DNA of 64,000 nt, taken from NCBI GenBank assembly GCA_030835925.1, contig JAURQW010000012.1, positions 3,500-67,499 on the forward strand. Reading direction: 5' to 3'. The translations under genes and the position numbers were made by a program. The notes below the pieces were generated by a model. It was not told the origin of the DNA. It worked only from the letters and a program-made list of their open reading frames with translations, and did not search any database. Below are positions 10,037 through 55,600 of the stretch, piece after piece. The stretch comes from Gammaproteobacteria bacterium. GTDB lineage: Bacteria; Pseudomonadota; Gammaproteobacteria; GCA-002705445; GCA-002716945. Each line of letters starts with the position of its first letter. The first letter of the stretch is position 1.

Positions 10037-10048
10037 AAGGAGAGGACT

Positions 10049-11293: not shown

Positions 11294-11295
11294 TA

Positions 11296-11955: not shown

Positions 11956-11963
11956 ATATTATA

Positions 11964-12389: not shown

Positions 12390-13150
12390 ATATCATACAA
12401 CTTATAAAACGAATTATAGATTTAAACAAAGGTCAAATATACAATATATTTTCTAGTGAAGCACTTCTTAGAATAATCGCATGGTATGTTACCCCTATAT
12501 TTTATTACTTGCGATGCTCGCCTAATTTAATCTCCGTAATTGCTTTGTTCGTTGGGCTCTATGCGTCATTACTAATATTTATTTATGGGTTAGATTATAT
12601 TGGTTATGGCATAGGTTTATATGTATTATCAATTATAATCGATCACTGTGATGGAAATATTGCAAGGTTAAAAAATATCCCAACATTCTTTGGTAGATTC
12701 ATGGATGGTCTATTTGATATAATTGTTCTCGGAATATTTCAGTCTTCAATCCTTTATGCATTTATTAGTGAACCTGAGGAGTTATCTGATATTACTCGTA
12801 ATTTCAGCGACCCTTTATTAATATTATTCATAATTAGTATTTTTTTTACTCCTATACAGCATTTGATTTATGATAGGTACTCTGCCTACACAAGATGGAT
12901 AAAAGAAGAACACTCTTTAGTAATACAGCCCACTTTAAGGAGGGAAGTTTCTTTCATATTTATAGATTTCATTAATGACTCACTGTTAATCTTGCTAATT
13001 ATATTGCCGTTTTACTTTGATATAGTAGTCATTTACTTTCTCATAAATTTATTGGCATCAATATATATAGTATTATTACATTTACTCTTTTCTAAGAAAT
13101 ACATGAGTGCTCATGCGGAGAATCATCGTAAAAAAGATATAAAAAGATAA
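12386..13150 (+). CDS. CDP-alcohol phosphatidyltransferase-family membrane enzyme
   Basis: Exact family signature DG-x2-AR-x8-G-x3-D-x3-D in DHCDGNIARLKNIPTFFGRFMDGLFD, with multiple TM helices. Confidence 0.85.
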   Translation: MNIIQLIKRIIDLNKGQIYNIFSSEALLRIIAWYVTPIFYYLRCSPNLISVIALFVGLYASLLIFIYGLDYIGYGIGLYVLSIIIDHCDGNIARLKNIPTFFGRFMDGLFDIIVLGIFQSSILYAFISEPEELSDITRNFSDPLLILFIISIFFTPIQHLIYDRYSAYTRWIKEEHSLVIQPTLRREVSFIFIDFINDSLLILLIILPFYFDIVVIYFLINLLASIYIVLLHLLFSKKYMSAHAENHRKKDIKR

Positions 13151-14442: not shown

Positions 14443-14445
14443 AAG

Positions 14446-15405
14446 ATGACAAAATTATTTATAACACTGGGGCCATCAACGTTAAATAAGAAATTTCTAA
14501 CATCTGTTGATAGTAAAAAAATTAAATTATTAAGAATTAATCTATCTCATACTGATATCAAAGATTTGCCTTGGTTAGTAAGATTTATTAGAAAATATTC
14601 TAAAACACCTATATGTTTTGATAGTGAAGGCGCTCAAATAAGGACATCTAAATTAAAAGGGAAGACAAAAAAACTAATTAGCAATAAAATCATAAAAATC
14701 AACAAAAGTAATATTGAAAACAACGATATTACATTACTCCCCAAAGATATTTATAAACAAATCTCAAAAGGTGATACGTTATCAATAGATTTCAATAGTG
14801 TTGTTGTCAAAGTTGTTAGAGAAAATACTACTCACTTTGAATGCAAAGTCTTACAAGGTGGCACAATAGGGTCGAATAAAAGCATTGCTGTTGATAGGGA
14901 TATTGCCATTCCGCCATTTACAGACAAAGATTTGAAAGCATTTGAGATTGGCTCCAAGCTAAACATTAAAAACTATGCGCTATCTTTTACATCAAGAGCA
15001 ATGGACATCAGGCAGCTAAGAAGTTTTTTTAAATCCAAAATAATCATTACCTCAAAAATAGAGTCAAAAATGGCATTAAAAAATTTATCTGAGATACTAA
15101 AAGAAGCAGATAATATACTTATCGACAGAGGTGACTTATCAAAAGAAATACCGCTTCATGAAATTCCAAAAAAACAAAAAGAAATTATAAAGAGAGCGCG
15201 AAAAATTAAAACACCTGTTTATGTTGCTACAAACTTACTTGAATCTATGGTTACTAGGATGGAACCGACGAGAGCAGAGGTTAACGATGTTTATAATACA
15301 ATTATAGATGGTGCCACTGGTCTTGTTTTGGCAGCAGAGACTGCAATAGGCAAATATCCAGAAAAATGCATAGATATGATACTGAAAATTTCAAAAACTA
15401 CATAG
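14446..15405 (+). CDS. Pyruvate-kinase-like enzyme (A+B domains only, no C-terminal domain)
   Basis: ITLGPST..LRINLSH, DSEGAQIR, IESKMALKNL, DRGDLSKEIP and EPTRAEVNDVYNTIIDGATGLVLAAETAIGKYP are collinear with PK catalytic motifs. At 319 aa it ends where the PK C-domain would begin. Confidence 0.7.
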   Translation: MTKLFITLGPSTLNKKFLTSVDSKKIKLLRINLSHTDIKDLPWLVRFIRKYSKTPICFDSEGAQIRTSKLKGKTKKLISNKIIKINKSNIENNDITLLPKDIYKQISKGDTLSIDFNSVVVKVVRENTTHFECKVLQGGTIGSNKSIAVDRDIAIPPFTDKDLKAFEIGSKLNIKNYALSFTSRAMDIRQLRSFFKSKIIITSKIESKMALKNLSEILKEADNILIDRGDLSKEIPLHEIPKKQKEIIKRARKIKTPVYVATNLLESMVTRMEPTRAEVNDVYNTIIDGATGLVLAAETAIGKYPEKCIDMILKISKTT

Positions 15406-15951
15406 ATGTCATTAAATACTAAGAAATCAAAGATTATTTGGTTCACAGGAATGTCAGGAACAGGTAAAAGTTATTATTCAAAATTTTTGGAAGAGAAACT
15501 GAACAATAATAATAAAAAAGTTAACCTTATTGATGGTGATATCATAAGAGATCGATACAAAATAAAGGTAGGTTTTGAGTATAATGAAATATGTACTAAT
15601 AATAGAAATATTGCTAGGTTATGTGAAAAAGAATACAAGAACTATGATATTACAATTGTTTCTGTAATCTCGCCCTATGAATTAATAAGACAAGAGATAA
15701 AAAATAAATTTCGAGATGATTTCCTACTAATTTATGTTCACTCTGATATTGAATCGCTTAAGGACAGAGATACAAAAGGTTTGTATAAAAAAGCAGATAT
15801 GGGGATAATCGATAACCTCATAGGTTATTCTAAAAAATCTATATATGAGCCGCCAGGAAGTCCAGATTTAATACTTGATACATCAAAAAACATCAAACCT
15901 TCTGAAAATATTAAACTACTTGATTGTTTTATAGATAAAAATATATTATGA
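15406..15951 (+). CDS. Adenylylsulfate (APS) kinase family protein (CysC-like; Cj1415-like is an alternative)
   Basis: P-loop GMSGTGKS, DGDIIR, SVISPY and KGLYKKA..G.I.N..GYS motifs of APS kinases. Confidence 0.75.
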   Translation: MSLNTKKSKIIWFTGMSGTGKSYYSKFLEEKLNNNNKKVNLIDGDIIRDRYKIKVGFEYNEICTNNRNIARLCEKEYKNYDITIVSVISPYELIRQEIKNKFRDDFLLIYVHSDIESLKDRDTKGLYKKADMGIIDNLIGYSKKSIYEPPGSPDLILDTSKNIKPSENIKLLDCFIDKNIL

Positions 15952-43549: not shown

Positions 43550-44448
43550 AATTTTCAATTATTTTGCCAACTTATAATAGAGCAGAATTGTTCCTCAAAA
43601 GAGCAATTGATTCAGTGGTTAGGCAGTCGTATAAAGATTGGGAGCTAATAATAGTTGATAACAATTCCACAGATAGTACAAAAGACTTGGTTGGCTCTTA
43701 TTCAGGTAATAATATTCGTTTATATAGTATCCAAAACGAAGGAAATATTGCAAAATCGCGCAATTTAGGTATATCAAAAGCGAAAGGTGAATTTATTGCA
43801 TTTTTAGATTCTGATGACTATTGGAGAGCAGATAAACTTGAGAAATGCATAAGTATTTTAAAAAATAATCCAGGCTATGACGGTGTTTGTCATGCTGAAT
43901 ACTGGATAGATGCTACAAGGTGTCAACAAATTAGAAAATATGGACCTGAAAGATATTTTAATTATAAACAACTACTTGTTAGAGGGAATTCAGTATCATT
44001 ATCTGCGATGATTGTTAATAGAGATAATATAATTACTGTAAAGAGTTTTTCAGAGAACAGAGAAATGATAACAGCTGAAGATTATGATTTATGGATAAAA
44101 TTAGCAAAGAATAACACAGAGATTTTTTTTACTAATGAGCCTTTAGGGTATTACCAGATACATGAGGATTCAGAGAGTTCGAATATATCAAGAAATACAA
44201 AAGCTATTATTTATGTTATAGAAAGCCACTTGAAAGATCAAAAAAAGATATTAAACAAAGCTCTTGCAAACTGCTGGAAAAATACTGGTAAACAATTTTA
44301 CTTAAATTGTTTAAATTATGAATCATATAGGTCATATCTAAAATCATTAAAATATAATTGCATGAATATAAAGATATATTTATTAATTTTAACCACTCTT
44401 GTGCCAGCCAAGTTTTATAAATATATAGTGAATAAGAAAAATGACTAA
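43546..44448 (+). CDS. Family-2 glycosyltransferase
   Basis: FSIILPTYNRAELFLKRAIDSV..QSYKDWELIIVDNNSTDST and FLDSDD. Confidence 0.8.
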   Translation: MKFSIILPTYNRAELFLKRAIDSVVRQSYKDWELIIVDNNSTDSTKDLVGSYSGNNIRLYSIQNEGNIAKSRNLGISKAKGEFIAFLDSDDYWRADKLEKCISILKNNPGYDGVCHAEYWIDATRCQQIRKYGPERYFNYKQLLVRGNSVSLSAMIVNRDNIITVKSFSENREMITAEDYDLWIKLAKNNTEIFFTNEPLGYYQIHEDSESSNISRNTKAIIYVIESHLKDQKKILNKALANCWKNTGKQFYLNCLNYESYRSYLKSLKYNCMNIKIYLLILTTLVPAKFYKYIVNKKND

Positions 44449-47266
44449 ACTAAAAATATCATATTCATATTTAATTGGTGATCTTTTGCATTATGGACAT
44501 CTTGAATTACTTAAAAAAGCAAAAGCAAAATGCGACTTACATATATGTGGAATAATATCTGATAAAGCTGCTAATGAATGGCAGTCACCTTTAATATGTA
44601 ATTATATAGAGCGAAGTAGCGTTATACAGCAAATAAGATATGTTGACAAGATTATGCAACAAGATTCCTTAGATCCATCTAGTAATCTTAAAAAAATAAT
44701 AAAAAAATATCCTCAGGCTACAATTTATTTTTTTCCGATGTATCAAAAATGGAATTTTCTACCTGGAACTAAAATAGTTAATGAGATTGGAGGAAAAATT
44801 ATTAAACCAGGTTTTTATAATAAACTTTCTCGTAGTAACATCAGAAGAGCCTTCAAAGAATCACCGAAAGTTAGCAAGATTACACATTCATTAAATAATC
44901 AAGTAAATTATAACCATGCATTTGATATAAATACGACTAAAGCTGAAACATTAAAAAATCTATCTAATCAATTAAAGAAATCATACATAGAAAAACTATT
45001 CACATTTAATATAAAAGAGTGGAGAGGTTCATCTGATAAAATCATTAAAAAATCACAGGAAATATTTGGTACAAAGAAAGTAGTGGTTAGGAGCTCATCA
45101 TTGTCTGAGGATATGATGAGTACTTCTGGTGCTGGGTTATATCATTCAGAACTTAATGTAGATAACTCTGATAGAAAGCAGTTAAAGCATTCAATAAACA
45201 AAGTGAAGCAGAGTTACAATAAAGGCAAAAAGGATCAATTTGATCAGATTATTATACAAGAACAATCTAATGATGTGATTATTAGCGGTGTATGTCTGAC
45301 ACGTAATCTTAAGAATAACTCTCCGTACTACATTATTAATTTTGATGATAAATCTATGCAAACAGATACTGTAACTGGTGGTCTAGTTGGTGATAAGGTA
45401 GAAATAATAAGAAATATTGAGATTAAAAGTATTCCATCTAAATGGAAAAACTTGATTATTTCTATAAGAGAAATAGAAGATCTTCTCCCCAATCTAGCTC
45501 TAGATATAGAGTTTGCGATCAACAAGAAAAAACAAATAATTATTTTTCAGGTAAGACCATTAGCCGCTAACTCAAAATACCCTGAGCATAATGATTTAAA
45601 AATATTTGATAACCATAAAAAAATCAAAAATATATATAAAAAGGAAATAAATCACCTCGGTGATGGTGAAGTCATATTGAGTGATATGGGTTTCTGGAAC
45701 CCTGCAGAGCTTATCGGAGATAGGCCTTTACCGTTAGGTGAATCATTGTTTAACAAGATTCTGATGGATGATGTATGGAATTCATCACTACTATCTCTTG
45801 GGTATAGTAAATCTGAAGGCTCTCTTAGTACAAAGATAGGAAATAAGCCTTATATTAATTTAAAAAAGTCTTTTGAAACATTAACCCCAAAAGATATTCC
45901 TAATTCTCTAAAAGATAAGCTAATCAAGTATTATAATAAAAAACTTAAGAGTTATCCTCAATATCATGATAAGTTAGAATTTGAGGTTGTGCTAAGTTCT
46001 TTCAATATGAATACTGATAACTCAATGGATGAGTTATTACAAAATAATTTTAATATTGATGAAATTACTCAAATCCGCAATTCTTTATATAAACTGACCA
46101 AGAATATTTTCAAAGATTATAAAGATATTTTTTCTAATGATACAACTTCAATAAAAAAGCTTGTTAAGAATTTTAAATATATCCCAACAACTAAAGCTAA
46201 TTGGAAGAGAAATCTTTTAACGCTAGTAACATATATAGATCAAATTCGAAAGAATGGTACGCCACAATTCTGTAGAGCAGCAAGATTAACATTTATTGCC
46301 AAAGATTTTATAAAAAGTTTTATTGATCATAATCCTAAATATAAAGAAGACTGTGAATTACTGTTATCAAAAATAAAAACTGTATCGTCTACTATGCAGG
46401 ATGACTTGGCTATGGCAAGTGACACTAAGAAGAAAGCAAGATTCTTTAAAAAGTATGGTCATCTAAGACCTGATACATATAACATTAATAATAAAAGATA
46501 TGATCAGATGAAAAACTTATTATCAAAAAACATAAGGAAAAATATAAAGGATAATAGAAAATCTGTTAATCCTGAATTAGTAAAAGATATTAATATATCT
46601 CTAAAAGAATTAAAACTTAATATCGATTATAAAGGGTTTATAAACTTTCTTGAATCATCTATAAAAAATCGAGAAAAATATAAATTTGAATATAGCAAGG
46701 TTATAAGCGGAATTATAGAAATGATTGCTGATATTGGTAATGTAATCAATATCAACAGACAAGATTTTTCCTACATAGATTATCAGACTCTTAAAATAAT
46801 TTTGAATTCAGATATGGATGTTAGTTCAGCGCATGAATTATGCACATCATTGATAATTTCTAGACGTAATAATCATGAAGTCTTAAATCATATCTCGTTA
46901 CCGTCATTGCTATTTAATCTTCAGGGTCTTACTGTCATAGCTAATCATACAACAGTGCCAAATTTCATTACTGACGAAATAGTTGAATCAAAAGTTATTA
47001 ATATAAAGATGCAAGAAACAACAAACATCACTAATAAAATAGTTGTAATAGATAATGCTGATCCTGGTTATGATTGGATATTCTCATATAAGATAAAAGG
47101 CTTGATAACTTTATATGGTGGGTTAGCGTCGCATATGGCAATTAGGTGTGCTGAATTTAATATACCTGCTGCGATTGGTTGTGGTTCATTAGTTTATGAA
47201 ACAGTAAACACTTCTGAAAAAATATTGCTTGATTGTAAAAATAAAAAAATCAAGAAGATAATATGA
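44441..47266 (+). CDS. Fusion protein: TagD-like cytidylyltransferase domain + PPDK/PEP-synthase-type ATP-grasp + phosphohistidine swivel domain (Cj1418 glutamine-kinase-like)
   Basis: aa 1-~135 carry GDLLHYGHLELLKKAK (HxGH). aa ~165-235 carry TKAETLKNL...VVVRSSSLSEDMMSTSGAGLY (PPDK_N signature). The C-terminus carries DNADPGYDW...LYGGLASHMAIRCAEFNIPAAIGCG (mobile His domain; His codon at 47132-47134). Confidence 0.7.
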   Translation: MTKLKISYSYLIGDLLHYGHLELLKKAKAKCDLHICGIISDKAANEWQSPLICNYIERSSVIQQIRYVDKIMQQDSLDPSSNLKKIIKKYPQATIYFFPMYQKWNFLPGTKIVNEIGGKIIKPGFYNKLSRSNIRRAFKESPKVSKITHSLNNQVNYNHAFDINTTKAETLKNLSNQLKKSYIEKLFTFNIKEWRGSSDKIIKKSQEIFGTKKVVVRSSSLSEDMMSTSGAGLYHSELNVDNSDRKQLKHSINKVKQSYNKGKKDQFDQIIIQEQSNDVIISGVCLTRNLKNNSPYYIINFDDKSMQTDTVTGGLVGDKVEIIRNIEIKSIPSKWKNLIISIREIEDLLPNLALDIEFAINKKKQIIIFQVRPLAANSKYPEHNDLKIFDNHKKIKNIYKKEINHLGDGEVILSDMGFWNPAELIGDRPLPLGESLFNKILMDDVWNSSLLSLGYSKSEGSLSTKIGNKPYINLKKSFETLTPKDIPNSLKDKLIKYYNKKLKSYPQYHDKLEFEVVLSSFNMNTDNSMDELLQNNFNIDEITQIRNSLYKLTKNIFKDYKDIFSNDTTSIKKLVKNFKYIPTTKANWKRNLLTLVTYIDQIRKNGTPQFCRAARLTFIAKDFIKSFIDHNPKYKEDCELLLSKIKTVSSTMQDDLAMASDTKKKARFFKKYGHLRPDTYNINNKRYDQMKNLLSKNIRKNIKDNRKSVNPELVKDINISLKELKLNIDYKGFINFLESSIKNREKYKFEYSKVISGIIEMIADIGNVININRQDFSYIDYQTLKIILNSDMDVSSAHELCTSLIISRRNNHEVLNHISLPSLLFNLQGLTVIANHTTVPNFITDEIVESKVINIKMQETTNITNKIVVIDNADPGYDWIFSYKIKGLITLYGGLASHMAIRCAEFNIPAAIGCGSLVYETVNTSEKILLDCKNKKIKKII

Positions 47267-47931
47267 AAAATATTTTAATAACACAAAGAATTGGCAAAAA
47301 TAAATATGGTGAGTACTACGATTATCTTGAATCTTCATACATAAAGTATCTAAACCAATATGAGATTAATCCAATTATACTTCCTAATAATACAAAAGAT
47401 ATCATTGGTTTTTATAAAAAAAATAGATGTAGTCATATCATATTGACAGGTGGAGATGATATATGTCCATCCCTATATAACAAGAAAGCTGCAAAACTAA
47501 ATAATAATCTTTATCAAAGAGACTTAAATGAGCAAATACTTGTAAAATATTCTGTAGAGAAAAAGATTCCAGTTCTTGGTATTTGCAGAGGCTTCCAAAT
47601 TATAAACGTCTGTTTAGGTGGTAAACTTACAAAAGATATTTGTGAGATTACTAATTCTATTAATAAAAAGAAGCATAAAGTAAATTTTACTAAAGACTTT
47701 GCAAAAAAGATGAAGAGGGAGTCAATTATAGTAAACTCATATCATAACCAAGGCATCACAAAACCGCAACTTGCTACTAATTTAGTACCAGTAGGTTTTT
47801 CAGATGATGGTGAACTAGTAGAAATTTATAATCATGTTAAATTACCAATCATAGGTATTCAATGGCATCCCGAAAGAAAAAACTTCTGTAAAGATTTTGA
47901 TGAGTATATATTTAAATTATTTTTGAAATAA
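47263..47931 (+). CDS. Class-I glutamine-amidotransferase-like gamma-glutamyl hydrolase (peptidase C26; Cj1417-like)
   Basis: Nucleophile elbow PVLGICRGFQIIN and His region GIQWHPE; 222 aa. Confidence 0.75.
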   Translation: MKNILITQRIGKNKYGEYYDYLESSYIKYLNQYEINPIILPNNTKDIIGFYKKNRCSHIILTGGDDICPSLYNKKAAKLNNNLYQRDLNEQILVKYSVEKKIPVLGICRGFQIINVCLGGKLTKDICEITNSINKKKHKVNFTKDFAKKMKRESIIVNSYHNQGITKPQLATNLVPVGFSDDGELVEIYNHVKLPIIGIQWHPERKNFCKDFDEYIFKLFLK

Positions 47932-47932
47932 G

Positions 47933-48694
47933 ATGAAAGCAATTATATTAGCTGCAGGGAAAGGAACTAGATTGGGAAAACTAACCTCAGATAGGCCTAA
48001 AGGTATGCTTGACTTCATGGGCAAAACTTTATTGGAGCATCAAATATCTATATATAGATTAGCTGGATTTACAGATATAACTATTGTACGGGGCTATAAA
48101 AAAAATAAAATTGATTATAAAGATATTAAGTATGTTGATAATGATTTATATGATAAAACGAATATGATTGAGTCATTAATGTGCGCCAGAGATCAAATAA
48201 ATGATGATTGTATAATATCGTACTCAGATATTTTATTTTCTACTAACTTACTAGCATCTCTTATTAAAAACAAAAGCTCAGTAGTCGTCACTGTCGATTC
48301 AGATTGGAAGAAATATTGGAATCACCGTTATGGCTCTTTAACAGAAGATTTAGAAGATCTTCAGATAAAAAATAATAAAGTAATAAAAATTGGACAACCA
48401 GTTACTGAATCAAAGTCGTTAGATTATCGATATGTAGGATTAAATAAATTTACATTAGATGGCATGAGAAAAATGCTATCGTTATATGATAAGAAAAAGT
48501 TACTCAAAGAAAAATGGAAATCATCTGGCAATCAATTTAAAAATGGTTATATGACCGATATATTACAAGAAATGATTGATGATAAAATTGAGGTTACACC
48601 ACATTTTACAAAAAATGAATGGCTGGAAATAGATACAGAGAGTGATTATGTTGTTGCAAAAGAATTGTATCTTAACAAGGAGTTTAAGTTTTAA
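47933..48694 (+). CDS. Nucleotidyltransferase (NTP_transferase fold; Cj1416-like cytidylyltransferase candidate)
   Basis: MKAIILAAGKGTRLGKLTSDRPKGML G-loop; 253 aa. Confidence 0.7.
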   Translation: MKAIILAAGKGTRLGKLTSDRPKGMLDFMGKTLLEHQISIYRLAGFTDITIVRGYKKNKIDYKDIKYVDNDLYDKTNMIESLMCARDQINDDCIISYSDILFSTNLLASLIKNKSSVVVTVDSDWKKYWNHRYGSLTEDLEDLQIKNNKVIKIGQPVTESKSLDYRYVGLNKFTLDGMRKMLSLYDKKKLLKEKWKSSGNQFKNGYMTDILQEMIDDKIEVTPHFTKNEWLEIDTESDYVVAKELYLNKEFKF

Positions 48695-48699
48695 ATATT

Positions 48700-49245
48700 A
48701 TGAATGCTAAAAATATTCATTCTTACCCAGTGCTTGATATATCAACTTATCTCGATGAATTCATCAACCAAAGAAAATTGTTTCTCGAAGAGATAAGGCA
48801 TTCGATAGATTCTGATATTAATAATATTAAATATGAAGTAAATAAAGTTATTGATTCCTATATTAGCTTGAATAAATCAAGTTCTTCGATCTTAAACAGA
48901 TTGATTAAACTAATAAATAACTTTGAATCATTAGATGAACACGATATTAAATTGATTATGTATCTTAAAAGATATTTTGAATTGCATAGGGCGCTTTACA
49001 CAGAGTTTGATTCTAAAAAGAAAAAGTTAGATGCTACTTCTCAAAAGAATGATATAAATATGTTATTTACAGTATCATACTTGCTGCAATTAATGTATAC
49101 AAAAACTAATGATTTTAATTATTTAAGTACATCTATAAAGATTAATGAATTTATTCTTACTGACTTCACATTACATGAATTAAAAGACTATCCTCTTGTC
49201 AAGTATCTGATTAATCATGAATTATTAATTTTCGAGAAATTATAA
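48700..49245 (+). CDS. Hypothetical protein (181 aa, predicted helical, no recognisable motif)
   Basis: ORF tightly packed between neighbours (5-nt gap upstream, 1-nt overlap downstream). Confidence 0.4.
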   Translation: MNAKNIHSYPVLDISTYLDEFINQRKLFLEEIRHSIDSDINNIKYEVNKVIDSYISLNKSSSSILNRLIKLINNFESLDEHDIKLIMYLKRYFELHRALYTEFDSKKKKLDATSQKNDINMLFTVSYLLQLMYTKTNDFNYLSTSIKINEFILTDFTLHELKDYPLVKYLINHELLIFEKL

Positions 49246-50012
49246 TGAAAATATCTAATTTTGGTATCATTTTATATCCTTCTACAAGATCTTTAGCATA
49301 CCTTCATATGTTATCTACAAATAATATTCTACCAAAAGAAGCTATAGTGATGGGTAAATGGCCTTTTTTACCAAATGATATTTTACTTGAAGCAAAAAAA
49401 TACTCTTATGCAGAGAAATATTTTTCGCTTAACGATAATCTAGAATTGTTGATTAAACATAAAGATATTAACTTATCTCTAATAGATAGCACTGACATTA
49501 ATAGCCAAGAAATACGCGAAGCCTTAAGCAAAGCTGAGTGTAAAAACTTTATATTCACTGGAGGCGGCATATTAAAAAAAGAAGTTTTGTCGCTAGATAT
49601 AGACTTTATACATGTCCATCCTGGAGATATCAACTATTATCGTGGCAGTACATGCTTTCACTATAGTTATTTAAATAAACAGAGTGTTTCTTGCACAACA
49701 TTCATAATGAGAAAAGAGCTAGATAGGGGAGAAGTTTTAGATATCAGTCATATACATCAGAATATTTTTATAGAAAATGATCAAAGCTTTTTTATCGACT
49801 ATATATATGACCCGTTCATCAGATCCATATCTTTAAAAAAACTTTTTCCTCATCTAGAAAACTTAAAAAAGAAAAAGAAAATAAGAATTAATAAATTTTA
49901 TGGACATGATCATTATGTTATACATCCAGTGCTAAGGAGTCTATTCATAAAAAAGATAAATAATTCTTATAGAATGAATGATAAAAAAGGGATATACATA
50001 ATTGATGCTTAA
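49245..50012 (+). CDS. Formyltransferase-fold protein (Fmt/PurN N-domain-like; sugar N-formyl/acyl transferase candidate)
   Basis: FIHVHPGDINYYRGSTCFHYSYLNKQSVSCTTFIMRKELDRGEVL parallels the formyltransferase motif (N)xHPSLLPxYRG...G.T.H.....D.G.I. Confidence 0.45.
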   Translation: MKISNFGIILYPSTRSLAYLHMLSTNNILPKEAIVMGKWPFLPNDILLEAKKYSYAEKYFSLNDNLELLIKHKDINLSLIDSTDINSQEIREALSKAECKNFIFTGGGILKKEVLSLDIDFIHVHPGDINYYRGSTCFHYSYLNKQSVSCTTFIMRKELDRGEVLDISHIHQNIFIENDQSFFIDYIYDPFIRSISLKKLFPHLENLKKKKKIRINKFYGHDHYVIHPVLRSLFIKKINNSYRMNDKKGIYIIDA

Positions 50013-51183
50013 ATACCTTTATATAATGCTTAGATTGATCATTGGAACAGTCCTAAGAGGAGCCAAGCTTTTTATTAAACAAAAAAATATAATTATTCTG
50101 AGCTCTATAGATCATTATACTTATAAGACTAATACAAGATACTTATTTGAATATCTTTCAAAGTATTTGACTAACTATGACGTCTATTATGTAACAGAAA
50201 GCATTCAAATAAAGCAATATTTTGAAGAGAATAATCTTAAATATTTAACAAAAAAAAACTTAATAAACTATCTCTGGGTTGCGCTTAGAACAAAAATTGT
50301 TATAAATGCTGGTGATGCTTATTTTAATTTTCTAAATATAATCAATGATGATGTAATTAAAATATGTACCATGCATGGTAATAGCCCTAAGACCACATTA
50401 CCTAAAGGTTATAGAATAAAAAATAGGTACAAAGACTTTGATTATATTTGTTTTAATAATAAATACTGTGCTGAGTTAATTGGAATAAAAAATTTTGGGT
50501 TAGAATCAAAGAAAGTTCTAGTCTTAGGGTCACCGCAATGTGACCAATATTTTAATCAGAATAAAGTAAAAGAGAAAAACTCATATAAAATATGGTCGCG
50601 CAGATTAAATCAAAACTTTTCTGAAAACTCAAAAACAATTTTATATACTCCCACATGGAGACCTTATCAGTATCCAAATCCTATAACTAATATTGATGGT
50701 TTTGACTGGGAAGAATTTAATTCATTTTTGGCGAAACATAATTTTTTTTTCTACTATTCCATTCATGCAATAAGCGAAAATAATAATTATAACTTTAACG
50801 ATACTAATATTAGATATATCAATGAAACCGAAGAACATTTATATGATACAAATAATTTTCTAAATGAAGTGGATTGTCTAGTGAATGATTACTCAAATAC
50901 TAATACAGATTTCTCTATATTAAATAGACCACAATTATATATAATGCCAGATTATGAAGAATATATTAAGAAAAAAGGCTTCACTGAAGATTATTCTATA
51001 TTCATATCTGGGATAAATATATTAGATTTCAACACATTATGTTCATCATTATCAAATGCATTGAATATGCCTGAGTATTTAGCCCAAACGTTACAACCAA
51101 GAAGCAACCTTCTTAATAAATATTCATCTGTTAAAATCAAGGATTCCTGCAAAGAATATAAAAACTTTATAGATACATTATAA
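50005..51183 (+). CDS. CDP-glycerol/alditol-phosphate glycerophosphotransferase-like (TagB/TagF family)
   Basis: TILYTPTWRP matches the TagF-family (L)YAPT(W/F)R motif. The size and position of the motif are appropriate. Confidence 0.5.
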   Translation: MLKYLYIMLRLIIGTVLRGAKLFIKQKNIIILSSIDHYTYKTNTRYLFEYLSKYLTNYDVYYVTESIQIKQYFEENNLKYLTKKNLINYLWVALRTKIVINAGDAYFNFLNIINDDVIKICTMHGNSPKTTLPKGYRIKNRYKDFDYICFNNKYCAELIGIKNFGLESKKVLVLGSPQCDQYFNQNKVKEKNSYKIWSRRLNQNFSENSKTILYTPTWRPYQYPNPITNIDGFDWEEFNSFLAKHNFFFYYSIHAISENNNYNFNDTNIRYINETEEHLYDTNNFLNEVDCLVNDYSNTNTDFSILNRPQLYIMPDYEEYIKKKGFTEDYSIFISGINILDFNTLCSSLSNALNMPEYLAQTLQPRSNLLNKYSSVKIKDSCKEYKNFIDTL

Positions 51184-53309: not shown

Positions 53310-53360
53310 GAATTATATTAACATTAATTATAGACATAATATATATTATACGAACATATA

Positions 53361-54848
53361 ATGACAAATGCACTTATAATACTTGGTAATCAGCTATTCC
53401 CTGTTAAACATATAAGGAAAGTTAAGCCTGACTGTGTATACATGAGAGAAGATTATCAGTTATGTACTTACCAGAAACATCATAAACATAAAATAACACT
53501 ATTTTTATCAGCAATGAGATCATATAAAGATGACTTAATAAGCTCTAAAATTGATGTACATTACCATCAACTAAACCCAGGTTTAACAGGTACTTATACA
53601 TCATACTTAATTAAGTTTATTAATAAAGAAAAGATTCAAGAAATAAGCTTTTTCGAAATAGAGGACAAATGGTTTGAAAAAGAGATGCTTAGGTTAAAAA
53701 AGGTGTGCAATATTAAAGTCAATATCATAAAAACACCTATGTTTCTAACAAATAGAGATGAATTCCTAGAGCTCTCCCCTCCTAGTAAAACACTACCTAA
53801 ATACAAGATGGCATCCTTCTATATAGCTCAGCGCAAAAAAATGAACATATTACTAGAGAATGGTAAGCCTAAAGGTGGTAAATGGTCCCATGATAAAGAG
53901 AATAGGAAGAAAATACCAAAAAACATCGATGTACCTATATTTAGAAATTATAAAGATACTACTCATACAAAAGACATAAAAAAGATTATAAATAAAGTTT
54001 TTCCAGATAATTATGGAGAAACTGATGACTTCAACTACCCTACTACCAGAAAAACCGCGCTAGCTATGCTTGATCATTTTATTTCCGAAAAACTCAATGA
54101 ATTTGGCGATTATGAGGACTCTGTTGATGGACGTTCACCTTTTTGGTTTCATTCTGTTCTCAGTCCTCTTCTGAATATTGGGCTTATTATTCCAGATGAT
54201 ATTATTTCAAGAGTACTAAAGAAAAAGAACATAAAAATAAACTCCTACGAAGGGTTCATTAGACAAATTATTGGTTGGAGAGAATTTATGAGAGGAATAT
54301 ATCAACAAGATGCAAAAATTATGTCTAACTCTAATTTCTTCGGCAATAATCGCAAAATGAAAAATTCTTGGTATGATGGTTCTACTGGCTTACTACCTTT
54401 AGATCAAAGCATTAAAAGCACATTAAAATATTCTTATGCGCATCACATTGAAAGATTAATGATTCAGGCTAATATAATGAACTTATGTGAAATTGACCCA
54501 AAAATTGTTTACAACTGGTTTATGGAGATGTACATAGACTCATCTGACTGGGTTATGACACCTAATGTTTATAGCATGGGTTTATTTGCTGATGGAGGCA
54601 TAATGGCCACCAAACCTTATCTGTGTGGTTCAAATTATATGCTGAAAATGATGGATTTTAAAAAAGGCGATTGGTGTAAAGTTTTAGATGGACTATATTG
54701 GAGATTTATTGATAAGCATCTAAAATTTTTTAAATCTAACCCAAGATTAAGCATGATGGCGGCAATACTTGGTAAGATGGATAAAAAGAGGAAAGATGAA
54801 CTTTTTATTCTTGCTAATAAATTTATTGAGGAAAATACAAAATCATGA
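53361..54848 (+). CDS. Cryptochrome/photolyase-related protein (COG3046, FeS-BCP / bacterial (6-4) photolyase-like)
   Basis: ALIILGNQLFP N-terminus, WREFMRG and a C-terminal Cys-containing region (PYLCGSNYMLKM...GDWC); 495 aa. Confidence 0.65.
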   Translation: MTNALIILGNQLFPVKHIRKVKPDCVYMREDYQLCTYQKHHKHKITLFLSAMRSYKDDLISSKIDVHYHQLNPGLTGTYTSYLIKFINKEKIQEISFFEIEDKWFEKEMLRLKKVCNIKVNIIKTPMFLTNRDEFLELSPPSKTLPKYKMASFYIAQRKKMNILLENGKPKGGKWSHDKENRKKIPKNIDVPIFRNYKDTTHTKDIKKIINKVFPDNYGETDDFNYPTTRKTALAMLDHFISEKLNEFGDYEDSVDGRSPFWFHSVLSPLLNIGLIIPDDIISRVLKKKNIKINSYEGFIRQIIGWREFMRGIYQQDAKIMSNSNFFGNNRKMKNSWYDGSTGLLPLDQSIKSTLKYSYAHHIERLMIQANIMNLCEIDPKIVYNWFMEMYIDSSDWVMTPNVYSMGLFADGGIMATKPYLCGSNYMLKMMDFKKGDWCKVLDGLYWRFIDKHLKFFKSNPRLSMMAAILGKMDKKRKDELFILANKFIEENTKS

Positions 54849-55600
54849 AAAATATTATAAAAAAATTAATGAAGCTGTTTGGATATAAAATAATCAAGAT
54901 TAATAAAGTTGGTTATCCTATTGATTATTGTAATGATTTTGTAAGTGAGTTTAAAGCTATAGAACCATTTACGATGACTAGTATTGAAAGAATATATGCC
55001 TTGAAATCTGCGGTAGAATACATAGCTAAAAATAATATCCGTGGATCTTTTGTGGAATGTGGTGTTTGGAAAGGTGGGTCTTGCATGATGATGGCAAATA
55101 CTTTAGTAGAAAATGGGCAATTTGAAAGGGAAATATGGCTGTATGATACATTTGATGGTATGACAAATCCTACAGATGATGATATTGAGGTTGAGACTAA
55201 AATAAAGGGCATGGAACTCCTTAAGGATCTTGATAAAACTACTGATAAATATAATATGTGGGCATATGCTCCAAAGGATCTTGTCATTAAAAATATGAGA
55301 TCTACGGCGTATCCAGAAAAAAACATTAAATATATAGAAGGCAAAGTTGAGCAAACCCTGCCTGAAAATACTCCAGGAGAAATTGCGCTCCTAAGATTAG
55401 ATACTGATTGGTATGAATCTACAAAGATCGAACTAGAAGCACTATACCCTCTTCTGGTCAGAGGCGGAGTACTAATAATAGATGATTATGGTCACTTTCA
55501 TGGAGCAAAAAAAGCTGTTGATGAGTATTTTCATAGTATTAATGAAGAGCCGCTTATGCATCGAATTGACTATTCAGGGAGAATGATCGTAAAAAGATAA
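54845..55600 (+). CDS. TylF/MycF-family SAM-dependent O-methyltransferase
   Basis: GSFVECGVWKGGSCMMMA, LRLDTDWYEST and LIIDDYGHF motifs typical of macrocin-O-methyltransferase-like enzymes. Confidence 0.75.
   Translation: MKNIIKKLMKLFGYKIIKINKVGYPIDYCNDFVSEFKAIEPFTMTSIERIYALKSAVEYIAKNNIRGSFVECGVWKGGSCMMMANTLVENGQFEREIWLYDTFDGMTNPTDDDIEVETKIKGMELLKDLDKTTDKYNMWAYAPKDLVIKNMRSTAYPEKNIKYIEGKVEQTLPENTPGEIALLRLDTDWYESTKIELEALYPLLVRGGVLIIDDYGHFHGAKKAVDEYFHSINEEPLMHRIDYSGRMIVKR

What the first reader, a model, noticed from the sequence alone, without database searches (positions are those of the whole stretch)
44441..48694. Syntenic homologs of the C. jejuni phosphoramidate (MeOPN) donor pathway, with a cytidylyltransferase domain fused to the glutamine-kinase-like enzyme
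Seen in sequence: three overlapping or abutting genes. (i) A 941-aa protein with a PPDK/PEP-synthase-type ATP-grasp signature (VVVRSSSLSEDMMSTSGAGLY) and a C-terminal phosphohistidine swivel domain (GGLASHMAIRCAEFNIPAAIGCG, His codon 47132-47134). (ii) A class-I amidotransferase/peptidase-C26-like hydrolase (GICRGFQ, WHPE). (iii) An NTP-transferase (ILAAGKGTRLG). Established knowledge, from memory of the Campylobacter work: Cj1418 (L-glutamine kinase, PPDK-like with catalytic His), Cj1417 (gamma-glutamyl-CDP-amidate hydrolase, GATase-like), Cj1416 (CTP:phosphoglutamine cytidylyltransferase) and Cj1415 (CysC-like kinase) make the activated phosphoramidate donor for the capsule O-methyl phosphoramidate. 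They are encoded in exactly this 1418-1417-1416 order. A CysC-like gene exists at 15406, and a TylF-type O-methyltransferase lies at 54845. What is new here: an extra N-terminal ~135-aa HxGH cytidylyltransferase (TagD-like) domain is fused to the kinase; the host is an AT-rich, apparently gammaproteobacterial genome; and the Cj1415-like kinase is detached. P-N-bonded glycan decorations are, to my knowledge, essentially a Campylobacter speciality, so this cassette may specify a new phosphoramidate-type (or related phospho-amino-acid) modification.
Basis: partly seen in the sequence, partly recalled or inferred. Interest (0 to 1): 0.8.

Follow-up and report, generated by a model that had tools for sequence, protein, structure and literature searches.

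The report
Phosphoramidate-donor cassette with fused cytidylyltransferase
Three tightly packed genes in a marine bacterium's surface-sugar locus match the Campylobacter pathway that builds a rare phosphorus-nitrogen sugar decoration, in a widespread but unstudied variant whose kinase carries an extra nucleotide-transferase domain.

Summary
Three overlapping or abutting + strand genes at 44441-48694 encode a 941-aa PPDK-like His-swivel kinase with an N-terminal TagD/Fom1-type cytidylyltransferase domain, a C26 gamma-glutamyl hydrolase and a COG1213/LicC-type cytidylyltransferase.

All three proteins group with kinase-hydrolase-cytidylyltransferase trios that, in other phyla, end with a kinase IMG names 'cytidine diphosphoramidate kinase'. 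That is the Cj1418-1417-1416-1415 layout. They do not group with PEP synthase, rifampin phosphotransferase or PuuD. I could not obtain the C. jejuni sequences, so homology to them is indirect.

The fusion is not special to this genome. It marks a large sub-family found in at least ten phyla, including archaea. It always sits beside the hydrolase and cytidylyltransferase, rarely beside a Cj1415-type kinase, and usually beside TagF-like or LicD phosphotransferases. No paper I found describes it.

The 'detached Cj1415' at 15406 fails the sub-family test. It sits next to a sulfotransferase-like gene and may serve sulfation instead.

Best reading: Gln is converted to phospho-Gln, then CDP-Gln, then CDP-amidate, which the adjacent TagF-like enzyme uses directly. 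The role of the fused domain is unresolved. This is a new variant of a known kind, of moderate interest.

The parts
44441..47266 (+). 941-aa fusion protein: N-terminal cytidylyltransferase domain plus glutamine-kinase-like PPDK-type kinase
   Evidence: ORF. Pfam CTP_transf_like, PPDK_N and PEP-utilizers. NCBIfam NF004508 scores 708 bits against a cut-off of 501 over aa 163-939. AF2 model has pLDDT 84.9.
44441..44824 (+). NCT domain (aa 1-128): TagD/Fom1-type (COG0615) cytidylyltransferase fold, HYGH at aa 17-20
   Evidence: phmmer against PDB hits ECT, TagD, TarD and Fom1 CyTase. Foldseek TM 0.74-0.81 to 1coz, 2b7l and 5x3d. Motif conservation.
44825..44923 (+). Flexible linker (aa 129-161) between the NCT domain and the kinase
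   Evidence: pLDDT below 50 for aa 129-135 and 137-161. This stretch is poorly conserved and of variable length in the alignment.
44924..46960 (+). ATP-grasp nucleotide-binding domain (RSSS..ED, aa 217-224) and central helical substrate domain of the kinase
   Evidence: PPDK_N match at aa 160-259. R217 S218 S219 S220 E223 D224 are invariant in 27 sequences. The whole body superposes on rifampin phosphotransferase.
46961..47263 (+). Phosphohistidine swivel domain; His898 codon at 47132-47134
   Evidence: PF00391 match at aa 865-934. G893 G894 S897 H898 are invariant. Codon read directly.
47263..47931 (+). 222-aa class-I amidotransferase/C26 gamma-glutamyl hydrolase (Cj1417-like)
   Evidence: Peptidase_C26 at 131.6 bits. 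Best NCBIfam hit is NF045546, gamma-glutamyl-CDP-amidate hydrolase, at 84 bits against a cut-off of 250. It is 27-39% identical to trio-linked C26 proteins and 24% to E. coli PuuD.
47933..48694 (+). 253-aa COG1213/LicC-type cytidylyltransferase (Cj1416-like)
   Evidence: NTP_transf_3 and NTP_transferase. Best PDB hit is LicC 1jyk. It falls in the clade of trio-linked cytidylyltransferases, apart from the window's three other NTP-transferases.
48700..49245 (+). 181-aa protein of unknown family (U181), a conserved accessory gene
   Evidence: No Pfam or NCBIfam hit. Homologues sit next to the same cassette in Gottesmanbacteria L023 and Leptospira L083.
49245..50012 (+). 255-aa formyltransferase-fold protein (U255), a conserved accessory gene paired with U181
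   Evidence: Weak Fmt and sugar N-formyltransferase hits. A profile hits Fmt, ArnA and sugar N-formyltransferases. H125, R133-G134-S135 and D160 are invariant. Co-occurrence shown.
50002..51183 (+). 393-aa TagF-like CDP-alcohol phosphotransferase (Glyphos_transf), candidate transferase for the donor
   Evidence: PF04464 at 131.5 bits. It overlaps its neighbours in the same array. TagF-like or LicD genes accompany most sister loci.
13150..15951 (+). Possible but doubtful second module: sulfotransferase-like U430 (13150-14442), pyruvate-kinase-barrel protein (14446-15405) and APS-kinase-like protein (15406-15951)
   Evidence: Pfam and NCBIfam results. The U430 profile hits the sulfotransferase PAPS-binding motifs. 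A 46%-identical U430 lies between the cytidylyltransferase and the APS-kinase-like gene in Planctomycetia L080.
54845..55600 (+). TylF-type O-methyltransferase, possibly co-transcribed; its link to the cassette is unproven
   Evidence: PF05711. It lies in the same gap-free + strand array, with no terminator signal above chance. Weak TylF-like hits occur near the kinase in L067 and L074.

Best explanation
The cassette is a member of the glutamine-kinase / gamma-glutamyl-amidate hydrolase / COG1213 cytidylyltransferase family, whose characterised example is C. jejuni Cj1418-1417-1416.

Inferred chemistry:
1. The kinase body uses ATP to phosphorylate His898 and passes the phosphoryl group to the amide N of L-glutamine.
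2. A cytidylyltransferase joins CMP from CTP to give CDP-L-glutamine.
3. The C26 hydrolase removes glutamate to leave cytidine diphosphoramidate.

This window belongs to a distinct, widespread sub-family. In it the kinase carries a flexibly tethered TagD/Fom1-type cytidylyltransferase domain, a Cj1415-type 3'-kinase is normally absent, and TagF-like or LicD phosphotransferases are the usual neighbours. I therefore propose that the non-3'-phosphorylated CDP donor is used directly by the adjacent TagF-like enzyme (50002-51183). That enzyme would release CMP and place a phosphoramidate-type group on a sugar of the large nonulosonic-acid-containing glycan encoded by the locus. U181 and U255 (formyltransferase fold) would act as tailoring enzymes.

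What is shown: gene anatomy, family placement, conserved catalytic residues, synteny statistics and fold. What is inferred: substrates, products, the TagF step and the job of the fused domain. The fused domain probably catalyses a cytidylyl transfer in the same pathway, as the Fom1 CyTase domain does.
For: - Kinase family: NF004508 scores 708 bits against a cut-off of 501. IMG names relatives 'glutamine kinase'.
- Kinase identity: 30-37% over about 800 aa to kinases of complete kinase-C26-cytidylyltransferase-APSK sets, against a 66-aa local match to E. coli PpsA.
- Catalytic residues: His898 and RSSS..ED are invariant in 27 sequences.
- C26: best hit is the Cj1417 model, with a score (84) inside the 71-134 range of all trio-linked C26 proteins.
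- Cytidylyltransferase: it falls in the trio-linked clade, and Cj1416 is a COG1213 enzyme (PMC12275187).
- Gene order: kinase-C26-cytidylyltransferase-APSK in L080, L084, L086 and L087 reproduces cj1418 to cj1415. Relatives of the trio-linked APSK of Leptospira L083 are named 'cytidine diphosphoramidate kinase'.
- Sub-family pattern: APSK within 10 kb in 2 of 21 fused loci against 7 of 9 unfused loci (Fisher p=5e-4). LicD or TagF in 11 of 21 against 0 of 9 (p=0.011). Glyphos_transf is the top Pfam family among neighbours of the remaining fused loci.
- Fused domain: more distant relatives of the domain (about 30-35% identity) are fused to LicD.
- Chemical precedent: the TagF-like FtaD transfers a phospho-group from a CDP-amino-acid donor (10.64898/2026.02.12.704994).
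- Pathway reference: PMC11800397.
Against: - No C. jejuni sequence could be compared directly.
- The C26 protein is far below the equivalog cut-off (84 vs 250).
- No enzyme in this sub-family has been assayed, and no TagF or LicD enzyme is known to accept CDP-amidate.
- With a Cj1416-like enzyme present, the fused cytidylyltransferase has no assigned step. Its first His is N or T in 5 of 26 relatives, and the TagD lysines and the RTEGISTT motif are not kept.
- The TagF-like genes of different loci are not orthologous (28-46 bits).
- The synteny counts are not phylogenetically independent.
- An APS-kinase-like gene and a sulfotransferase-like gene do exist in the window, so a 3'-phospho donor route is not excluded.
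Confidence: 0.45

Rival explanations
1. Two independent branches share one fused gene. The N-terminal domain is an ordinary TagD-like enzyme that makes CDP-glycerol or another CDP-alditol for the TagF-like or LicD transferase, a teichoic-type phosphodiester decoration. The kinase, C26 hydrolase and COG1213 enzyme make the phosphoramidate donor, which a different, unidentified transferase handles.
For: The domain has the TagD/TarD fold, with TM 0.74-0.81. Its more distant relatives (about 30-35% identity) are LicD-cytidylyltransferase fusions, the classic donor-plus-transferase pairing. A Cj1416-like enzyme already covers the phospho-glutamine step. In Fom1 the fused CyTase and the PEP mutase do not catalyse consecutive steps (5x3d hit; Fom1 chemistry from my own knowledge).
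Against: The TagD residues that bind glycerol-phosphate and CTP (Lys44, Lys46, RTEGISTT) are replaced by conserved W47, S49 and KLSRxxI. The fusion has been kept together with the kinase across at least ten phyla, and this NCT sub-type is found mainly in fusions to PPDK-type kinases, which argues for a tighter functional link. No other candidate phosphoramidate transferase is conserved across fused loci.
Confidence: 0.2
2. This is the first reader's full model, a split Campylobacter-type pathway. The trio makes cytidine diphosphoramidate. The detached APS-kinase-like enzyme (15406) 3'-phosphorylates it, and the neighbouring sulfotransferase-fold protein U430 (13150) transfers the phosphoramidate, as PAPS-dependent enzymes transfer sulfate. 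The TylF enzyme then O-methylates it to give MeOPN.
For: No sulfate adenylyltransferase accompanies the kinase in the window. A 46%-identical U430 lies between the cytidylyltransferase and an APS-kinase-like gene in Planctomycetia L080. U430 carries both PAPS-binding motif regions. Sulfotransferase-domain genes flank the Azospirillum cassette. TylF-like genes lie near the kinase in L067 and L074.
Against: The window kinase scores 86 bits on NF004041, against a cut-off of 127. Seven of nine trio-linked kinases score 143-185 on it, while the window kinase's best model is generic apsK. It keeps the APS-kinase ISP motif that the Cj1415-like clade lacks, and it branches basally. It lies 29 kb from the trio. 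Fused-type loci normally lack such a kinase. APS kinase plus a sulfotransferase is the ordinary signature of glycan sulfation.
Confidence: 0.15
3. A CDP-linked phospho-amino acid (CDP-glutamine or a relative) is itself the donor. The TagF-like enzyme transfers phospho-glutamine onto the sugar, as FtaD does with CDP-N-methylthreonine. The C26 enzyme then trims glutamate after transfer, or only salvages the donor.
For: FtaD precedent. TagF-like or LicD neighbours. Two cytidylyltransferases could serve two phospho-substrates.
Against: The C26 gene is invariably adjacent, and in 31 loci it is fused to the kinase. It is most similar to the enzyme that acts on the soluble CDP intermediate. No signal peptide or other sign of periplasmic action was looked for or seen.
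Confidence: 0.12
4. The big protein is an ordinary PEP synthase/PPDK or an antibiotic (rifampin-type) phosphotransferase, the C26 protein is a generic gamma-glutamyl hydrolase, and the cassette has nothing to do with P-N chemistry.
For: The closest solved structure for the kinase body is rifampin phosphotransferase. PGAP labels relatives only 'PEP-utilizing enzyme'.
Against: PEP synthase models score at most 47 bits against cut-offs of 600-880. The rph model scores 23 against 999, and only over the swivel domain. E. coli PpsA matches only 66 aa. The structural match to RPH has 14-15% identity, and no Cj1418 structure exists in the PDB for comparison. The cassette is fixed within glycan loci.
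Confidence: 0.05

Closest known systems
C. jejuni MeOPN donor pathway: Cj1418 L-glutamine kinase, Cj1416 CTP:phosphoglutamine cytidylyltransferase, Cj1417 gamma-glutamyl-CDP-amidate hydrolase, Cj1415 cytidine diphosphoramidate kinase (PMC11800397; PMC6429109)
   Same: The three protein families are the same and in the same gene order. The catalytic His is in a C-terminal swivel domain. The C26 protein is closest to the Cj1417 model. The cassette sits in a surface-glycan locus.
   Different: The kinase carries an extra N-terminal COG0615 cytidylyltransferase domain on a disordered linker. There is no adjacent Cj1415-type kinase. A TagF-like phosphotransferase and a U181/formyltransferase-like pair follow in the array. 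The C26 protein is far below the equivalog cut-off. The organism is a marine AT-rich proteobacterium.
C. difficile flagellin Type A glycan pathway FtaA-D (CDP-threonine / CDP-N-methylthreonine donors; TagF-like FtaD) (10.64898/2026.02.12.704994)
   Same: A CDP-activated amino-acid-derived donor is combined with a Glyphos_transf-family phosphotransferase that decorates a sugar hydroxyl.
   Different: FtaA-D has no PPDK-like kinase and no C26 hydrolase. Its product is a P-O phosphodiester to threonine rather than a P-N group.
Fom1 of fosfomycin biosynthesis (N-terminal CyTase domain fused to PEP mutase; PDB 5x3d)
   Same: It is among the closest solved relatives of the fused domain and the only one that aligns over its full length. 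In both, an N-terminal TagD-like cytidylyltransferase is fused to a phosphoryl-chemistry enzyme of the same pathway and acts on an unusual phosphorus nucleophile.
   Different: The partner domain is PEP mutase rather than a His-swivel kinase. Fom1 belongs to secondary metabolism, not glycan decoration.
TagD/TagF and LicC/LicD systems (CDP-glycerol, CDP-ribitol and CDP-choline decoration of glycans)
   Same: The logic is the same: a cytidylyltransferase plus a CDP-alcohol phosphotransferase. Both cytidylyltransferase classes (COG0615 and COG1213) and both transferase families appear in these loci.
   Different: Here they are coupled to a glutamine-kinase-like enzyme and a gamma-glutamyl hydrolase. 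The TagD substrate-binding lysines and the RTEGISTT motif are not conserved.
Rifampin phosphotransferase RPH-Lm (PDB 5hv1/5fbs) and PEP synthase/PPDK
   Same: The three-domain architecture (ATP-grasp, helical substrate domain, His swivel) is shared, as presumably is the ATP to His~P to substrate mechanism.
   Different: Identity is only 14-15%. Sequence models for rph and PEP synthase match only the swivel domain, well below their cut-offs.

Membership tests
L-glutamine kinase (Cj1418-type, EC 2.7.3.13) | PPDK/PEPS-type ATP-grasp nucleotide domain with the RSSxxxED motif | tested here: met
   PPDK_N at 43.6 bits. R217-S220, E223 and D224 are invariant.
L-glutamine kinase (Cj1418-type, EC 2.7.3.13) | C-terminal phosphohistidine swivel domain with a catalytic His | tested here: met
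   PF00391 at 51.8 bits. His898 is invariant in 27 of 27 sequences.
L-glutamine kinase (Cj1418-type, EC 2.7.3.13) | Full-length sequence membership in the dedicated family model | tested here: met
   NF004508 (PRK05849) scores 708.5 bits against a cut-off of 501 over aa 163-939. IMG names three relatives 'glutamine kinase'. That this model contains Cj1418 is my inference and was not verified.
L-glutamine kinase (Cj1418-type, EC 2.7.3.13) | Direct alignment or phylogeny with Cj1418 itself | not tested
   The sequence was not obtainable. No Campylobacter locus was among the 80 kept or in the top-120 lists, and the original papers are not held.
L-glutamine kinase (Cj1418-type, EC 2.7.3.13) | Gln-dependent ATP to AMP + Pi with N5-phospho-Gln as product | not testable with these tools
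   This needs a biochemical assay.
gamma-glutamyl-CDP-amidate hydrolase (Cj1417, NF045546) | Class-I amidotransferase/C26 fold with a Cys-His(-Glu) triad | tested here: met
   Peptidase_C26 at 131.6 bits. GICRGFQ and WHPE are present.
gamma-glutamyl-CDP-amidate hydrolase (Cj1417, NF045546) | Score at or above the equivalog cut-off (250 bits) | tested here: not met
   The score is 84.2 bits, though this is the best of all NCBIfam models. Nine of ten trio-linked C26 proteins from other phyla hit this model at 71-134 bits and the tenth gave no hit at the 1e-15 threshold; none reaches the cut-off.
CTP:phosphoglutamine cytidylyltransferase (Cj1416, COG1213) | COG1213/LicC-type NTP-transferase fold with an N-terminal GxGxRL motif | tested here: met
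   NTP_transf_3 at 59 bits. Best PDB hit is LicC 1jyk. Relatives are labelled COG1213. Cj1416 is a COG1213 enzyme (PMC12275187).
CTP:phosphoglutamine cytidylyltransferase (Cj1416, COG1213) | Orthology with cytidylyltransferases of complete kinase-C26-cytidylyltransferase-APSK sets | tested here: met
   In an NJ tree the window protein sits inside the trio-linked clade, and the window's three other NTP-transferases are the outgroup.
Cytidine diphosphoramidate kinase (Cj1415-type) - for the gene at 15406 | Membership of the APS-kinase sub-family that trio-linked kinases belong to (NF004041/PRK05541, cut-off 127) | tested here: not met
   The window protein scores 86.2 bits. Seven of nine trio-linked kinases score 143-185. 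Relatives of the trio-linked kinase of Leptospira L083 are named 'cytidine diphosphoramidate kinase' by IMG.
Cytidine diphosphoramidate kinase (Cj1415-type) - for the gene at 15406 | Adjacency to the kinase-hydrolase-cytidylyltransferase trio | tested here: not met
   It lies 29 kb upstream, next to a sulfotransferase-like gene and a pyruvate-kinase-barrel gene.
TagD/Fom1-type (COG0615) cytidylyltransferase - for aa 1-128 | Rossmann-like nucleotidyltransferase fold | tested here: met
   Foldseek TM 0.74-0.81 to 1coz, 2b7l and 5x3d.
TagD/Fom1-type (COG0615) cytidylyltransferase - for aa 1-128 | HxGH motif | tested here: met
   HYGH at aa 17-20 in the window. Across the sub-family the first His is N or T in 5 of 26 sequences.
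TagD/Fom1-type (COG0615) cytidylyltransferase - for aa 1-128 | Second nucleotide motif (RTEGISTT / ISST) and the TagD Lys44/Lys46 | tested here: inconclusive
   KLSRSNI aligns with Fom1 GISSTRL, so one Ser is kept. Lys44 and Lys46 are replaced by W47 and S49.
PEP synthase / PPDK / rifampin phosphotransferase | Full-length match above the family cut-off | tested here: not met
   The best PEP synthase model scores 46.7 against 883, and rph scores 23 against 999, both over the swivel domain only. E. coli PpsA gives a 66-aa local match.

The most novel reading that the evidence does not exclude
The fused cytidylyltransferase-kinase cassettes define a second, mechanistically distinct route to P-N (phosphoramidate-type) glycan decoration. 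In this route a CDP donor that is not 3'-phosphorylated is installed by TagF- or LicD-type phosphotransferases. The route operates in marine Proteobacteria, gut Bacteroidales, clostridial flagellin glycosylation islands, CPR bacteria and archaea. P-N glycans would then be common rather than a Campylobacter curiosity, and the fused domain would catalyse a new cytidylyl transfer to a phosphoramidate-type nucleophile.
Probability: 0.3. Interest if true: 0.8.

Novelty: new variant of a known kind. Interest (0 to 1): 0.55.

Why it matters
The MeOPN group of Campylobacter capsules matters for phage recognition and host interaction. A 2019 review held in the library says MeOPN-modified sugars have so far been identified only in Campylobacter. 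This window, and the survey it prompted, show that the donor-pathway genes occur in more than 585 GTDB species. They come in at least three architectures: plain, with an N-terminal cytidylyltransferase fusion, and with a C-terminal hydrolase fusion.

The fused type has a consistent and different gene neighbourhood. If its product is a phosphoramidate installed by TagF or LicD enzymes, that would explain orphan observations such as the phosphoramide in Xanthomonas LOS. It would also give glycobiologists a genomic marker for P-N decorations in cultivable organisms such as Parabacteroides goldsteinii and Clostridium tetani, and would add a new substrate class to two large transferase families. 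If the product is something else, the cassette is still an untested enzyme system of wide distribution.

Tried and rejected
1. Obtaining Cj1415-1418 sequences for direct comparison failed.
- The original papers are not held.
- The top-120 lists of three protein searches held no Campylobacter entries.
- The PDB holds no Cj14xx chains.

2. Naming the cytidylyltransferase through source annotations gave only 'phosphocholine cytidylyltransferase family' or 'choline kinase' (COG1213), which is uninformative.

3. Taxonomic naming of the host: close relatives carry only WGS or Tara accessions, and the best GTDB relative of the kinase is only 40% identical.

4. I considered the Vibrio alfacsensis plasmid enzyme (966 aa) as another example of the fused type. 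I rejected this because its N-terminal extension does not align with the domain and its TagF-like gene is not orthologous.

5. The promoter and terminator scan gave no signal above shuffles, so operon limits remain undefined.

6. I considered U430 and the U446 family as one transferase family and rejected it, because jackhmmer finds no link between them. U446 looks SGNH-like from its GDSF... motifs (motif reading is mine).

7. The PEP synthase, antibiotic kinase and generic PuuD readings are rejected on model scores and pairwise tests.

Full report
**Observation.** All are on the + strand. The first junction is a 4-nt ATGA overlap and the second a 1-nt gap. Every quoted motif is in the translations, and the His codon cat at 47132-47134 is codon 898.

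Pfam finds CTP_transf_like (aa 14-89), PPDK_N (160-259) and PEP-utilizers (865-934) in the large protein. It finds Peptidase_C26/GATase in the second and NTP_transf_3/NTP_transferase in the third. The same 941-aa protein, followed by the same two genes, is on contigs from three independent metagenomes. This is therefore real, conserved coding sequence.

The genes sit in a gap-free co-directional array running from 42617 to 55947, inside a glycan locus of about 55 kb. That locus contains NeuB, CMP-nonulosonate synthetase-type, Wzz, WecA-type and many epimerase and aminotransferase genes. The right flank is fabG-fabF-pabC(Proteobacteria equivalog)-tmk-holB-metX. This flank, with 27-34% GC, fits the 'AT-rich gammaproteobacterium' guess. 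Close relatives come from Tara and GOS surface-ocean data.

**Family placement.** The kinase body (aa 163-939) matches NCBIfam equivalog NF004508 (PRK05849, unnamed) at 708 bits against a cut-off of 501. PEP synthase models reach at most 47 bits against cut-offs of 600-880, and the rifamycin phosphotransferase model reaches 23 against 999; both match only the swivel domain. IMG names three homologues of about 40% identity 'glutamine kinase'.

The C26 protein's best NCBIfam model is NF045546, gamma-glutamyl-CDP-amidate hydrolase, the Cj1417 activity. Its score is 84 bits, far below the 250-bit equivalog cut-off. That shortfall is general. Nine of ten C26 proteins taken from other such trios across phyla also have this model as best hit, at 71-134 bits; the tenth (L053) gave no hit at the 1e-15 threshold used. 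None reaches the cut-off.

The 253-aa protein is a COG1213/LicC-type enzyme. According to PMC12275187 this is the class Cj1416 belongs to.

Pairwise outgroup tests agree:
- The window kinase is 30-37% identical over about 800 aa to kinases of complete four-gene sets. Against E. coli PpsA it gives only a 66-aa local match.
- The window C26 protein is 27-39% identical to trio-linked C26 proteins and 24% identical to E. coli PuuD.

In an alignment of 27 fused proteins, His898, G893-G894-S897 and R217-S220/E223/D224 are invariant. An AlphaFold2 model (pLDDT 84.9, pTM 0.72) superposes over its whole kinase body on rifampin phosphotransferase at 14-15% identity. That is the expected nearest solved fold, because no Cj1418 structure is in the PDB.

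**Distribution and architectures.** Eighty loci were kept. With loci from other look-ups, I analysed 84 non-redundant loci by ORF calling and phmmer seeds. Four layouts appear:
1. N-terminal cytidylyltransferase (NCT) fused to the kinase: 22 complete loci, each with the C26 and COG1213 genes adjacent. In 21 of them the order is kinase-C26-cytidylyltransferase.
2. Plain kinase + C26 + cytidylyltransferase: 9 loci, 7 of which have an APS-kinase-like gene within 10 kb. In L080, L084, L086 and L087 it follows the trio, giving the cj1418-to-cj1415 order.
3. Kinase fused C-terminally to C26: 31 loci, mostly Lachnospiraceae and Bacteroides, with no cytidylyltransferase or APS kinase nearby.
4. Kinase alone or with C26 only: 21 loci.

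The fused type occurs in Bacteroidota, Bacillota, Planctomycetota, Desulfuromonadales, Synergistota, Marinimicrobia, Melainabacteria, a CPR lineage, Berkiella, and two archaeal MAGs. Searching the NCT domain alone against 1.84 billion representatives gave 131 hits at E<=1e-10, and most full-length hits are 920-985 aa. The fusion is therefore a widespread sub-family and not a feature special to this genome. In a search of the held literature I found no paper describing it.

NJ trees place the cytidylyltransferases of fused loci as one sub-clade nested among those of unfused loci, well apart from the window's three other NTP-transferases. The kinases show a compatible pattern. These trees are rough: NJ, midpoint-rooted, no support values.

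**Neighbourhood logic.** APS-kinase-like genes lie within 10 kb in 2 of 21 fused loci against 7 of 9 unfused trio loci (Fisher p=5e-4). LicD or TagF-like genes were seeded in 11 of 21 against 0 of 9 (p=0.011). Among the nine fused loci without a seed hit, Glyphos_transf was the most frequent Pfam family among neighbours, tied at four members with three generic families. These counts ignore shared ancestry, and the TagF-like genes are not mutually orthologous, so the association holds at family level only.

Examples with the fused kinase:
- Parabacteroides: trio, then a flippase, then LicD.
- Brocadia: trio, two unknown genes, then LicD, in a nonulosonic-acid cluster.
- C. tetani: a PF00884 protein, an APS-kinase-like gene, then the trio, inside a flagellin glycosylation island.

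In the window the trio is followed by U181, U255 and a TagF-like gene, each overlapping or abutting the next. The U181/U255 pair recurs after the trio in a Gottesmanbacteria MAG, and between the APS-kinase-like gene and the kinase in Leptospira ilyithenensis. U255 has the formyltransferase fold, with its His and Asp conserved.

**The fused domain.** It aligns with ethanolamine-phosphate cytidylyltransferase, TagD and TarD. It aligns over its full length with the CyTase domain of Fom1, and the model gives TM 0.74-0.81 to those folds. A linker of about 33 residues with pLDDT below 50 joins it to the kinase.

Conserved with TagD: D14, H20, D41, R58, D69, and usually H17. The first His is N or T in 5 of 26 relatives. 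TagD Lys44 and Lys46 are W47 and S49. RTEGISTT is replaced by KLSRxxI, which aligns with Fom1 GISSTRL. The domain therefore looks like a nucleotidyltransferase with altered substrate contacts, perhaps inactive in some lineages.

More distant relatives of the domain, at about 30-35% identity, are LicD-cytidylyltransferase fusions. Four proteins of 1128-1208 aa join the same domain to a differently ordered PPDK-type kinase. Both facts tie this domain type to 'phosphorylate, cytidylylate, transfer' pathways.

**The 'detached Cj1415' and the TylF gene.** The 15406 protein is an APS-kinase-family member. Its best model is generic apsK (138.2 bits against a cut-off of 138.7), and it scores only 86 on NF004041/PRK05541 (cut-off 127). 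Seven of nine trio-linked kinases score 143-185 on that model. Relatives of the trio-linked kinase from Leptospira L083 are named 'cytidine diphosphoramidate kinase' by IMG. The window protein keeps the canonical ISP motif where that clade has LS(I/L)F, and it branches basally.

Its neighbours are a pyruvate-kinase-barrel protein and U430. A U430 profile touches the 5'-PSB and 3'-PB regions of sulfotransferases. This reads most simply as a sulfation module. However, a 46%-identical U430 lies between the cytidylyltransferase and an APS-kinase-like gene in a Planctomycetia locus, and a sulfotransferase fold is what one would expect for an enzyme using a 3'-phospho-CDP donor. The claim is therefore undecided and weakly disfavoured.

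The TylF gene is 3.7 kb beyond the TagF-like gene. A TupABC-like transporter and a photolyase-related gene lie between them. It is in the same array, whose largest gap is 51 nt, and no terminator signal exceeds chance.

**Mechanism.** I commit to the following.
- *Shown:* family placement, catalytic residues and synteny.
- *Inferred:* everything else below.

The kinase makes N5-phospho-glutamine via His898~P. A cytidylyltransferase makes CDP-glutamine. The C26 enzyme releases glutamate to give cytidine diphosphoramidate, as established for C. jejuni (PMC11800397; PMC6429109). In the fused sub-family the donor is not 3'-phosphorylated. A TagF-like or LicD enzyme transfers it with release of CMP, which is chemically the same reaction these families perform with CDP-alcohols. 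The precedent with a CDP-amino-acid donor is C. difficile FtaD.

I put about 0.7 on the trio making a CDP-amidate-type donor and 0.45 on the whole scheme. Rivals:
- The fused domain and TagF form an independent CDP-alditol branch (0.2).
- Intact CDP-glutamine is transferred, with later trimming (0.12).
- No P-N chemistry at all (0.05).

**Novelty and limits.** The cassette is a new variant of a known kind. It has the known enzyme families and probable chemistry, in an undescribed, phylogenetically broad architecture with a different downstream logic. P-N glycan groups are not strictly Campylobacter-only, since Xanthomonas campestris LOS carries a phosphoramide (PMC8042644).

The main gaps are these:
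- No direct comparison with the C. jejuni proteins.
- No biochemical data for any member of the fused sub-family.
- Synteny statistics uncorrected for phylogeny.
- An unresolved role for the fused domain.

Noticed in passing
L022, L024, L027-L031, L033-L040, L042, L043, L047, L049, L050, L052, L055, L059, L060, L062, L065, L069, L071, L072, L076, L077 (kinase ORFs at about 10000-13000 in each): 31 loci, mostly Lachnospiraceae, Butyrivibrio and Bacteroides MAGs, encode a protein of about 1010-1040 aa in which the glutamine-kinase-like enzyme is fused C-terminally to the C26 hydrolase. No COG1213 cytidylyltransferase or APS-kinase-like gene lies within 10 kb. This might make free phosphoramidate or use a different activation route.
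   Followed up: partly
Proteins P0156, P0159, P0163, P0169: Four proteins of 1128-1208 aa join the same NCT-type cytidylyltransferase domain to a PPDK-type enzyme with permuted domain order. The PEP-utilizers swivel lies at about aa 730-830 and the PPDK_N ATP-grasp at the C-terminus. This is a second, independent cytidylyltransferase-kinase fusion.
   Followed up: partly
Proteins P0192, P0194, P0208: More distant relatives of the NCT domain (about 30-35% identity) are proteins of 295-333 aa with an N-terminal LicD segment and a C-terminal cytidylyltransferase domain.
   Followed up: partly
window 13150-17594: This sub-cluster holds a sulfotransferase-like U430, a pyruvate kinase reduced to its barrel domain (319 aa), an APS-kinase-like protein and a 548-aa protein with no family hit. 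A CDP-alcohol phosphatidyltransferase-family gene (12386-13150) precedes it. No sulfate adenylyltransferase is in the window. A pyruvate-kinase-barrel homologue also lies just upstream of the kinase in a Marine Group I thaumarchaeote (L081 561-1133).
   Followed up: partly
window 48700-50012; L023 14294-15674; L083 8716-9992: The U181 (no known family) and U255 (formyltransferase fold) gene pair travels with the cassette in three distant lineages. A formyltransferase-like enzyme tied to a phosphoramidate-donor pathway has no known role.
   Followed up: partly
window 51183-53309: A TupABC-like oxyanion ABC importer (permease, ATPase and PBP_like_2 binding protein, all below the TupA/B/C equivalog cut-offs) starts on the stop codon of the TagF-like gene, so it appears co-transcribed with glycan genes. 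Its ligand is unknown; phosphate, sulfate or tungstate are possibilities.
   Followed up: no
window 53361-55947: A photolyase-related DPRP-family protein (495 aa), a TylF methyltransferase and a DCC1-like thiol-disulfide oxidoreductase-family protein close the + strand array. The coding strand and GC skew both switch sign at about 56 kb.
   Followed up: no
window 56408-56854 (- strand): A stand-alone 148-aa CTP_transf_like protein gives a weak phmmer hit to the NCT seed. It is probably a housekeeping nucleotidyltransferase such as CoaD and was not examined further.
   Followed up: no
L006 (C. tetani QMBC01000002.1), L007 (Brocadia), window 20960-22066 and 39984-40673: The cassette repeatedly sits beside nonulosonic-acid genes (NeuB, CMP-NulO synthetase). 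In C. tetani it lies inside a flagellin glycosylation island with Maf/MptE-like genes. This hints that the acceptor may be a nonulosonic acid or a flagellin glycan in some lineages.
   Followed up: partly
L007 14364-15704, L008, L021, L058, L067, L084 (family 'U446'): A protein family of 405-450 aa with no Pfam hit and SGNH/GDSL-like motifs (GDSF..., GxGNxG..DQ, GGH) accompanies both fused and unfused cassettes in six loci.
   Followed up: partly
L088 (Vibrio alfacsensis plasmid pYa108, NZ_AP024168.1 about 127.8-133.4 kb): A plasmid-borne copy of the layout: a 966-aa 'PEP-utilizing enzyme' whose N-terminal extension is unrelated to NCT, then C26, a LicC-like gene and a CDP-glycerol glycerophosphotransferase-family gene, with divergent cysD-cysN next to it. 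Thirteen other plasmids (Azospirillum, Cupriavidus, Roseovarius, Agrobacterium and others) also carry the kinase.
   Followed up: partly
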